Source: Eledone cirrhosa (lineage: Eukaryota). Taken from it: 64,000 nucleotides of DNA. Position numbers and translations under genes: made by a program. Under the pieces are notes generated by a model, which searched no databases, had not been told where the DNA came from, and saw only the letters and a program-made list of their open reading frames with translations. Of this stretch, positions 12,484-14,250 are shown one piece after another; position 1 is the first letter of the stretch, and the number at the start of each line of letters is the position of its first letter. The stretch covers positions 215,388,001-215,452,000 of the forward strand of contig OZ024742.1 of the NCBI GenBank assembly GCA_964016885.1, read 5' to 3'.

Positions 12484-14250
12484 TTTGGATATAATGCTCT
12501 GAAATAGCGATATATATGTGAAGACAAACACAGAATATTCGAAAATATTCTGTATGTTTATAATAAACATTTTGAAGACCCAATCGCTATAGAATAGAAT
12601 ACGTCACGTATAACAATTTGGGATTCTCGATAAAAGCAAGGGAAGTAACCTACGCATTTCATTCTTATTAGAAATCATCAGGATTACATATCCAATGCTT
12701 TTATCGAGAACGACACAGCTAGAGACTTATAGAATACTTAGCTGTGTACAGGAACTGGTTTGAAAGAGCGGTGGCCGGTCCGGCAGAAATTAGAATTTGG
12801 ATATAATGCTCTGAAATAGCGATATATATGAGAAGACAAACACAGAATATTCGAAAATATTCTGTATGTTTATAATAAACATTTTGAAGACCCAATCGCT
12901 ATAGAATAGAATACGTCACGTATTACAATTTGGGATTCTCGATAAAAGCAAGGGAAGTAACCTACGCGTTTCATTCTTATTAGAAATCATCAGGATTACA
13001 TATCCAATGCTTTTATCGAGAACGACACAGCTAGAGACTTATAGAATACTTAGCTGTGTACAGGAACTGGTTTGAAAGAGCGGTGGCCGGTCCGGCAGAA
13101 ATTAGAATTTGGATATAATGCTCTGAAATAGCGATATATATGTGAAGACAAACACAGAATATTCGAAAATATTCTGTATGTTTATAATAAACATTTTGAA
13201 GACCCAATCGCTATAGAATAGAATACGTCACGTATTACAATTTGGGATTCTCGATAAAAGCAAGGGAAGTAACCTACGCGTTTCATTCTTATTAGAAATC
13301 ATCAGGATTACATATCCAATGCTTTTATCGAGAACGACACAGCTAGAGACTTATAGAATTTCTGCCGGACCGGCTACCGCTCTTTCAAACCAGTTCCTGT
13401 ACACAGCTAAGTATTCTATAAGTCTCTAGCTGTGTCGTTCTCGATAAAAGCATTGGATATGTAATCCTGATGATTTCTAATAAGAATGAAACGCGTAGGT
13501 TACTTCCCTTGCTTTTATCGAGAATCCCAAATTGTAATACGTGACGTATTCTATTCTATAGCGATTGGGTCTTCAAAATGTTTATTATAAACATACAGAA
13601 TATTTTCGAATATTCTGTGTTTGTCTTCACATATATATCGCTATTTCAGAGCATTATATCCAAATTCTAATTTCTGCCGGACCGGCTACCGCTCTTTCAA
13701 ACCAGTTCCTGTACACAGCTAAGTATTCTATAAGTCTCTAGCTGTGTCGTTCTCGATAAAAGCATTGGATATGTAATCCTGATGATTTCTAATAAGAATG
13801 AAACGCGTAGGTTACTTCCCTTGCTTTTATCGAGAATCCCAAATTGTAATACGTGACGTATTCTATTCTATAGCGATTGGGTCTTCAAAATGTTTATTAT
13901 AAACATACAGAATATTTTCGAATATTCTGTGTTTGTCTTCACATATATATCGCTATTTCAGAGCATTATATCCAAATTCTAATTTCTGCCGGACCGGCTA
14001 CCGCTCTTTCAAACCAGTTCCTGTACACAGATAAGTATTCTATAAGTCTCTAGCTGTGTCGTTCTCGATAAAAGCATTGGATATGTAATCCTGATGATTT
14101 CTAATAAGAATGAAACGCGTAGGTTACTTCCCTTGCTTTTATCGAGAATCCCAAATTGTAATACGTGACGTATTCTATTCTATAGCGATTGGGTCTTCAA
14201 AATGTTTATTATAAACATACAGAATATTTTCGAATATTCTGTGTTTGTCT
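12484..14250. mobile_element. Tandem array of a 312 bp hammerhead-containing monomer (retrozyme or PLE pseudo-LTR-like): ~2.8 units HHR-sense on -, then ~2.9 units on +
   Basis: Period 312 (ggatataatg at 12487, 12799, 13111). Strand switch near 13358. (TA)n on both flanks. HHR cores at 12675, 12987, 13299 (-) and 13467, 13779, 14091 (+). Confidence 0.93.
13439..13523 (+). ncRNA. Type I hammerhead ribozyme (representative of 6 copies in array 1)
   Basis: gtaatc-CTGATGA-t ttct aata agaa t-GAAAC gc GTA^-ggttac. Distal stem I tctcgataaaagca/tgcttttatcgaga is 14 bp perfect. Palindromic minimal helix III ACGCGT. Predicted cut 13497/13498. Confidence 0.92.

What the first reader, a model, noticed from the sequence alone, without database searches (positions are those of the whole stretch)
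12484..14250. Retrozyme-like 312 bp hammerhead tandem array with a mid-array strand switch
Seen: a non-coding 312 bp monomer repeated ~5.7 times, each with a complete type I HHR (CUGAUGA/GAAAC, GUA site, 14 bp distal stem I, palindromic ACGCGU). Three HHRs point left and three point right from a junction near 13358 (shared aat), and both outer ends join (TA)n at different monomer phases. Known: tandem HHR repeats of this size in animals (non-LTR retrozymes, newt and schistosome satellites) self-cleave to monomers that can circularise, and PLE insertions often show inverted 5' segments. Inference: a multimer copied from a circular RNA by a PLE RT. A related array lies at 51 kb, so the family is dispersed.
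Basis: partly seen in the sequence, partly recalled or inferred. Interest (0 to 1): 0.92.

Follow-up and report, generated by a model that had tools for sequence, protein, structure and literature searches.

The report
Two-armed hammerhead retrozyme with Penelope-type ends
This is a young copy of a 312-base repeat carrying a self-cutting RNA motif, and its back-to-back layout, with each outer end stopping at a different fixed spot, is the family's normal way of landing; that points to a Penelope-type reverse transcriptase copying the RNA, probably a circle, from both sides of a DNA break.

Summary
Confirmed. Arms 12483-13359 (-) and 13357-14251 (+) hold 5.7 units of 312 bp with six type I hammerheads (one has a core variant). 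The strand switch is the family rule: 58 of 64 loci have head-to-head arms. 53 of 53 classifiable loci, and 37 of 37 position-ordered end pairs (88 distinct), are A+B; none are A+A or B+B. Exact patterns count 11,538 hammerheads and 1,732 A ends. (TA)n target, inverted arm and a 30-40-nt one-sided tail are published hallmarks of Penelope-like elements (PLEs), whose RT starts at two adjacent sites. Arms cross the ribozyme cut 410 times without an indel, do not stop there, and do not mirror each other, which favours a circular template primed from both target ends. Not shown: cleavage, RNA, circles, or the partner; an intact PLE shares only the 28-nt hammerhead core. A few loci fit a multimer template better. 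The scan has noted Penelope-type inverted insertions on other DNA.

The parts
12483..13359 (-). Left arm, 2.8 units; RNA-sense 3' end at unit phase 168 (site B, carries the tail), 5' end at phase 228
13357..14251 (+). Right arm, 2.9 units; 5' end at phase 172, 3' end at phase 130 (site A, next to the unit's own AUAUAUAU tract)
13357..13359 (.). Head-to-head junction with 3-nt microhomology AAT
12483..12518 (-). 36-nt tail (phases 133-168) present at this outer end only
13437..13526 (+). Type I hammerhead, first right-arm copy: long bulged stem I, CUGAUGA 13467, stem II with U.U base, GAAAC, palindromic ACGCGU stem III, predicted cut after GUA 13497; repeated at +312 and +624
12650..13335 (-). 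Three left-pointing hammerheads (CUGAUGA at 13305, 12993, 12681; cuts 13275/4, 12963/2, 12651/0); the outermost has GAAAU at 12656
14220..14246 (+). Hairpin with UUCG loop (phases ~99-125) just 5' of site A; pairs kept with changes in the older relative; candidate RT-recognition element (inference)
12288..12482 (.). Left (TA)n target tract
14252..14305 (.). Right (TA)n target tract
50992..52783 (.). Second insertion, 310-nt subfamily: minus arm (B end) to 51269, plus arm 4.9 units (A end), one unit with a 135-nt deletion; (TA)n on both sides

Best explanation
A young insertion of a non-autonomous, non-coding non-LTR retrozyme. SHOWN: tandem 312-nt units with a type I hammerhead; two head-to-head arms; (TA)n target; one outer end at site A and the other at site B. 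INFERRED: (1) arrays are transcribed and the hammerhead, probably as a dimer through ACGCGU, cuts them to monomers that are ligated to 312-nt circles; (2) a PLE RT-endonuclease binds the RNA near the hairpin 5' of site A and cuts both strands of a (TA)n tract; (3) the two target 3' ends prime on the same RNA, one at B and one at A, 36 nt apart; (4) each RT runs round the template for 0.2 to more than 20 laps; (5) the two cDNA ends are joined by microhomology or with a short filler, and second strands are filled in. This gives (TA)n <-arm | arm-> (TA)n with a tail at exactly one end. Odds: retrozyme moved by PLE machinery about 0.9; two-ended priming at A and B about 0.75; monomer circle as the usual template about 0.6.
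For: Architecture: 58 of 64 loci two-armed. Ends: 32 of 32 classifiable in the 312 set (n=40; 4 single-arm, 4 with another end), 21 of 21 in the 310 set (n=24 new; 2 single, 1 other), 37 of 37 divergent pairs among 55 B and 53 A ends listed by position on C1 (34 ends unpaired; p 1.5e-11; 2 overlap the earlier set). Genome-wide 862 forward A ends against 884 forward B ends. Frangieh 2024 (PMC11167929): a purified PLE protein cuts and extends both strands, starts RT at two adjacent internal sites, the 30-40-nt tail lies between them, and a dimer is predicted. Craig 2021 (PMC8557442): inverted 5'-truncated copy, one-sided tail, (TA)n bias. For a circle: 410 crossings of the cut site with no indel and 2 substitutions; 5' ends uniform round the unit (n=118, Rayleigh p 0.85; 6 within 6 nt of the cut against 4.5 expected); both arms longer than one unit in 42 of 53; variants fixed in every copy of both arms, private to one locus of the sample (30C in this array; 5 private plus 1 near-private among the 310-set loci), which needs a one-unit bottleneck. 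Junctions: microhomology of 2 nt or more in 23 of 55, 13 with filler; chance for plain joins 18%. An intact candidate enzyme exists: 17 of 150 listed matches lie in a 758-aa frame; 2 of 4 fetched were displayed with YRDD, a Cys linker and a GIY-YIG-like motif, and one ends in (TA)n.
Against: In this very array phase 190 is C in both left-arm copies and T in all three right-arm copies; L061 has C in 19 of 22 copies of one arm only: one circle read twice should not do that. L127 and L062 carry a non-fixed variant in the same unit of both arms (2 shared against 59 not shared), as a multimer template would give. A and B arm lengths are uncorrelated (rho 0.13, p 0.35), so elongation is not visibly coupled. 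'Private' means private among 40 or 25 sampled loci of about 1,700; a homogeneous source array read as a linear multimer would also give fixed variants. The candidate PLE shares only 26 of 28 nt of the hammerhead core and has a ~70-nt tail with no likeness to the A/B region. The older relative has 2 homotypic loci among 15 classifiable by eye. In the 2026 preprint only 1 of 9 predicted Xenopus retrozyme dimers cleaved in vitro, so a good motif does not guarantee activity.
Confidence: 0.7

Rival explanations
1. Same PLE enzyme and same A/B priming, but the template is an uncleaved linear multimer (or multimeric circle) transcribed from a long source array; the hammerhead plays no part in each insertion.
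For: Frangieh 2024 found hammerhead cleavage dispensable in vitro and unprocessed RNA the main substrate. Same-unit shared variants in L127 and L062; arm-specific 190C in this array and L061. Long arrays (22 units in L061, about 27 on C1:36.48 Mb) exist as possible sources. No pile-up of 5' ends at the cut fits this as well as a circle.
Against: Only 2 of 61 non-fixed variants are shared in the same unit. New variants fixed across whole arrays need a monomer bottleneck at some step. Array length would shrink each generation without a circle (inference).
Confidence: 0.2
2. One priming event only (at B); the inverted arm and the A end arise afterwards by fold-back or self-priming and endonuclease resolution, as proposed by Arkhipova 2013 and Craig 2021.
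For: It gives one tail per insertion by construction. A few junctions are symmetric (L132, L115). Arkhipova 2013 (PMC3846280) reports palindromes at PLE inverted junctions.
Against: Near-symmetric junctions are 7 of 55 against 7.3 expected by chance. The A arm is longer than the B arm in 28 loci and shorter in 21 of 53; a fold-back copy cannot be much longer than its template. Variants are not mirrored.
Confidence: 0.07
3. A DNA-level satellite: tandem amplification by unequal crossing over, with inversions from recombination or from assembly error.
For: Some long arrays show multi-copy variant blocks (L061), so local amplification can follow insertion.
Against: Fixed A/B ends, (TA)n targets, identical units on many contigs and a different junction at each locus. 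Joints from left-arm to right-arm sequence at many different phases occur in short-read contigs of three runs at depth 3-32, so the class is not a long-read artefact.
Confidence: 0.03

Closest known systems
Animal non-LTR retrozymes (Cervera and de la Pena 2020, PMC7229834; Li, Clavereau and Pollet 2026, 10.64898/2026.07.22.740005)
   Same: 150-450-bp non-coding tandem units, one type I hammerhead each, GC under 50% (35%), self-paired predicted circle (z -5.5); weak palindromic stem III as in axolotl HHR_Amex1 and a U.U stem II base as in HHR_Amex2.
   Different: In the passages and sections read they are described as plain tandems, and PLE mobilisation is argued from shared hammerheads, co-occurrence and pLTR likeness; I saw no head-to-head arms, tail or microsatellite targeting described. 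Their supplements were not read. Cleavage and circles were shown there, not here.
PLE insertions with inverted 5'-truncated copy and 30-40-bp tail (Arkhipova 2013, PMC3846280; Craig 2021, PMC8557442; Frangieh 2024, PMC11167929)
   Same: Head-to-head arrangement, tail at one end only, AT-rich or (TA)n target, two RT start sites downstream of a hammerhead.
   Different: No ORF; both arms are multi-unit; the tail is called 'optional' or 'often' there, but here one A plus one B is nearly invariant; junctions are not palindromic.
LINE-1 twin priming (recalled, not read here)
   Same: Both target ends prime on one RNA; RNA-sense 3' ends face outward and 5' ends meet at a microhomology joint.
   Different: In L1 the second primer sits at a variable internal site and the two segments do not overlap; here both sites are fixed, 36 nt apart, and both arms cover the same unit many times.

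Membership tests
non-LTR retrozyme | Tandem 150-450-bp units, dispersed, GC under 50% | tested here: met
   312/310 bp, GC 35%, many contigs
non-LTR retrozyme | One type I hammerhead per unit | tested here: met
   5 of 6 canonical cores, one GAAAU variant; Rfam HH9 below gathering score
non-LTR retrozyme | No coding capacity | tested here: met
   Frames inside the array are 70 aa or less, stop to stop
non-LTR retrozyme | No LTR, PBS or PPT | not tested
   No terminal direct repeats are seen at the ends; PBS and PPT were not searched
non-LTR retrozyme | Self-cleavage of the transcript | not testable with these tools
   Needs in vitro transcription
non-LTR retrozyme | Expressed as monomer circles | not testable with these tools
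   No RNA holder listed
non-LTR retrozyme | Target-site duplication longer than 4 bp when present | tested here: inconclusive
   Both flanks are (TA)n, so a duplication cannot be read
PLE-type insertion | Inverted 5'-truncated copy at the 5' end | tested here: met
   58 of 64 loci
PLE-type insertion | 30-40-bp tail at one end only | tested here: met
   36 nt; A+B in 88 of 88 distinct loci
PLE-type insertion | Microsatellite or AT-rich target | tested here: met
   (TA)n after nearly all A and B ends
PLE-type insertion | Homology to the pLTR of an autonomous PLE in the genome | tested here: inconclusive
   Only the 28-nt hammerhead core matches one intact PLE family; 18 other ORF ends and a profile search over 720 kb of fetched DNA gave no partner; the genome was not searched exhaustively
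autonomous PLE | RT plus GIY-YIG ORF | tested here: not met
   No ORF in the unit
L1-type twin priming | Non-overlapping segments, inverted segment starting where the direct one stops | tested here: not met
   5' ends uniform; both arms longer than one unit in 42 of 53

The most novel reading that the evidence does not exclude
Each insertion records a PLE RT dimer priming both ends of a cut (TA)n tract on one ribozyme-made RNA circle, at two fixed sites, and rolling round it independently. About 1,700 young loci would then be a genome-scale footprint of rolling-circle reverse transcription of a circRNA, and the PLE tail and inverted copy would be one obligatory outcome of two-site priming, not optional by-products.
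Probability: 0.45. Interest if true: 0.82.

Novelty: new variant of a known kind. Interest (0 to 1): 0.6.

Why it matters
Two stated open questions meet here. Cervera 2020 proposes, without a direct test, that retrozyme circles are templates for a PLE RT; Craig 2021 names the origin of PLE tandem and inverted structures as unresolved. A 312-nt non-coding unit with about 1,700 young insertions, two mapped start sites and a strict one-A-one-B rule gives a minimal substrate and sharp predictions for the in vitro PLE system that now exists. Every part is known on its own; the new thing is their joint, near-invariant occurrence in a retrozyme.

Tried and rejected
Expression: no RNA holder listed; the three runs laid were contigs of unrecorded kind from one sample and no listed piece spanned this array's own junction, so neither expression nor this junction was checked by reads. 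Rfam at gathering score missed the hammerheads. Partner hunt: a DNA search with the second hammerhead family returned nothing because its words are too common (a pattern then gave 5,155 hits); 25 loci of the endonuclease family at 34 kb and 18 ORF ends showed no retrozyme-like 3' region (the one high score, L066, was a neighbouring retrozyme); two weak profile hits in L072 and L073 (E 0.2-0.5) were antisense chance matches. Pfam and PDB gave no useful match for the PLE fragments, so 'Neptune-type' rests on motif inspection and the linker described in Craig 2021. Fold-back was tested and rejected. U190 variability was considered as an RNA-modification trace; a quasi-palindrome hot spot is the plainer reading and neither was tested further. 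No host gene was recognised next to the array. Depth was not used as a copy number. Searches for prior description of inverted or tailed retrozymes found the PLE papers but none on retrozymes; subscription papers are not in the library. The earlier-findings look-up by sequence found nothing.

Full report
OBSERVATION. The array is as described. Tandem Repeats Finder gives period 312 at 12483-13359 and 13357-14262, 99% matches; the two are inverted repeats of each other. Numbering the unit from the first base after the predicted cut (window 13498 = phase 1), the right arm runs from phase 172 to 130 and the left arm, read on the minus strand, from phase 228 to 168; they overlap by AAT at 13357-13359. 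So the RNA-sense 5' ends meet in the middle and both 3' ends run into (TA)n. Each unit has stem I - CUGAUGA - stem II - GAAAC - GC - GUA - stem I (z -8.1, 0 of 200 shuffles). Stem III is a palindromic ACGCGU that can pair between two copies (-9.5 kcal/mol); stem II opens with U.U. Cervera 2020 describes a weak palindromic helix III in axolotl HHR_Amex1 and a U.U helix II base in HHR_Amex2, both cleaving better as dimers (PMC7229834, passages). Five of six copies are canonical; the outermost left one reads GAAAU. Rfam misses them at gathering score and finds HH9 at E 0.026. Frames inside the array are 70 aa or less; GC is 35%.

CENSUS. The window lies in G000, a 3.0-Gb genome whose organism I did not identify. 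Exact patterns count 11,538 hammerhead cores of this family, 1,732 ends at site A and 884 forward-strand ends at site B (reverse hits are multiply counted), so about 1,700 insertions at least. I fetched the 38 other loci listed (only 39 of 535 candidates were scored and 150 of 262 matches listed, so this set leans to close copies) and 24 loci of the 310-nt subfamily (23 listed, one met by chance). With the two window arrays that is 64 loci: 58 have head-to-head arms and 6 a single arm. The 310-nt unit is 100% identical across many contigs, so the family is very young.

THE END RULE. Outer ends cluster at two places: A, phases about 128-133, next to the unit's own AUAUAUAU tract, and B, phases about 164-172. 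In the 312 set 32 of 32 loci with both ends classifiable are one A and one B (17 B/A, 15 A/B; 4 single-arm and 4 with another end or a gap set aside). In the 310 set 21 of 21 are (2 single, 1 other). As a check free of the similarity ranking, I paired the A and B ends listed by position on the first 96 Mb of C1: 37 of 37 divergent pairs within 15 kb are A+B, with 34 ends unpaired (p 1.5e-11). Two of these overlap the fetched set, giving 88 of 88 distinct loci. The window array is B (left) plus A (right). An older relative, colinear over the whole unit (score 263 against a shuffle maximum of 165), uses the equivalent ends: by eye 13 A+B, 2 homotypic, 5 unclassifiable of 20. A UUCG-capped hairpin just 5' of A is kept in it, with 94% of cells paired and two pairs changed on both sides (9 related sequences, 5 of 500 shuffles as high): modest support.

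WHAT IS KNOWN. Craig 2021 (PMC8557442, 12 passages): PLE insertions often have an inverted 5'-truncated copy at the 5' end, a 30-40-bp tail often at one end only, and a microsatellite bias including (TA)n; how these structures form is left open. Arkhipova 2013 (PMC3846280, 10 passages): the tail is optionally present on one of the inverted pLTRs, and junction palindromes are read as self-priming. Frangieh 2024 (PMC11167929, parts 1-2 of 4 and passages): a purified PLE protein cuts and extends both target strands, starts RT at two adjacent internal sites that bound the tail, is predicted to be a dimer, and does not need hammerhead cleavage in vitro; the text has no 'circular' or 'retrozyme'. 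Cervera 2020 (passages, sections 13 and 17) shows cleavage and circles for other animals and names PLEs as candidate mobilisers. Li 2026 (10.64898/2026.07.22.740005, parts 1-3 of 5 and passages) argues PLE origin from co-occurrence and pLTR likeness; 'tail', 'junction' and 'orientation' do not occur in it; 1 of 9 dimers cleaved. Supplements of these papers were not read and could show inverted retrozyme loci. The 36 nt between A and B, the target and the inverted arm therefore match the PLE signature point for point.

MECHANISM TESTS. Fold-back: junctions with 5' phases within 20 nt are 7 of 55 analysable (3 of 58 failed), 7.3 expected; the A arm is longer in 28 loci and the B arm in 21. Rejected as the rule. 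Joint: microhomology of 2 nt or more in 23, 1 nt in 9, blunt in 10, filler in 13; chance for 2 nt or more is 18%, which suggests end joining. Template: arms cross the cut site 410 times with no indel and two substitutions; 5' ends are uniform round the unit and not enriched at the cut, so the template had no ribozyme-made 5' end and was not jumped end to end with scars. That leaves a circle or an uncleaved multimer. Variants fixed in all copies of both arms and private in my sample (30C here; others; 5 private and 1 near-private in the 310 set) show that both arms share a source and that a one-unit bottleneck occurs. Against a single circle: phase 190 differs between the arms of this array and of L061, and 2 of 61 non-fixed variants sit in the same unit of both arms. 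Phase 190 is a hot spot (8 of 36 loci, corrected p about 7e-6), which weakens but does not remove the objection. Arm lengths are uncorrelated.

PARTNER. A second hammerhead family in the window (21415-21615, 43704, 60297-63384) is the pLTR of an autonomous PLE: an ORF starts after its long end, 17 of 150 listed matches lie in a 758-aa frame, and the two of four fetched copies that the script displayed have YRDD, a Cys-rich linker and a GIY-YIG-like motif. It inserts in (TA)n with a short and a long end on opposite arms. It shares 26 of 28 nt of hammerhead core with the retrozyme and nothing else; its tail is about 70 nt. It is a candidate, not a shown partner.

ARTEFACT. Short-read contigs of three runs of one sample hold joints from left-arm to right-arm sequence at many phases, at depth 3-32, so head-to-head junctions exist outside the assembly; this array's own junction was not among the listed pieces. 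No RNA holder was listed.

VERDICT. A non-LTR retrozyme by every feature that could be tested, inserted with the full PLE signature. Retrozymes, inverted PLE copies and the tail are each known; their near-invariant combination in a retrozyme, with multi-unit arms on both sides, I did not find described.

Noticed in passing
window 21415-21615, 43704, 60297-63384: pLTR and hammerhead of an autonomous Neptune-type PLE (at least 5,155 exact hits, many copies in a 758-aa frame); same short-end plus long-end head-to-head layout with a ~70-nt tail. The 2-kb TA/CA-rich tract at 60664-62603 resembles the low-complexity stretch found between ORF and pLTR in full copies.
   Followed up: partly
unit phase 190 (window 13085, 12773); L042, L046, L047, L061, L062, L065, L066: One T varies to A or C among copies within arrays in 8 of 36 loci, far above other sites. 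T to A perfects the adjacent GCCGG-A-CCGGC hairpin, so a quasi-palindrome hot spot is likely; a modified U read variably by RT is not excluded.
   Followed up: partly
L039:5827-6379, L094-L113: Older retrozyme relative, colinear with the 312-nt unit but with a different hammerhead, using the equivalent A and B ends; 3,121 search candidates.
   Followed up: partly
L065 (2530-7638), L053, L089: Another tandem hammerhead family with a period of about 520 bp, also in divergent arms; in L065 it surrounds the 312-nt array.
   Followed up: no
G000:C1:83679803-83691720: Tandem array, period about 1,075 bp, of the autonomous PLE's hammerhead region next to an RT frame: a possible retrozyme being born from a pLTR.
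   Followed up: no
window 51520-51870: One unit of the 51-kb array lacks 135 nt (site B and the 5' half of the hammerhead), giving a 175-nt period.
   Followed up: no
window 33300-34600, 29521-29808, 53634-54245: Decayed PLE remnants (Cys linker plus GIY-YIG-like region; RT C-terminal part); the 34-kb family has 55,391 search candidates and about 88% protein identity among copies.
   Followed up: partly
window 10085-10158: tRNA-like match just over the Rfam cut-off (29.7 bits), probably a SINE head.
   Followed up: no
window 887-1666 and 45248-45661: Fragments of a LINE (zf-RVT hit) and of what looks like a mariner-type transposase (recalled likeness, no Pfam hit).
   Followed up: no
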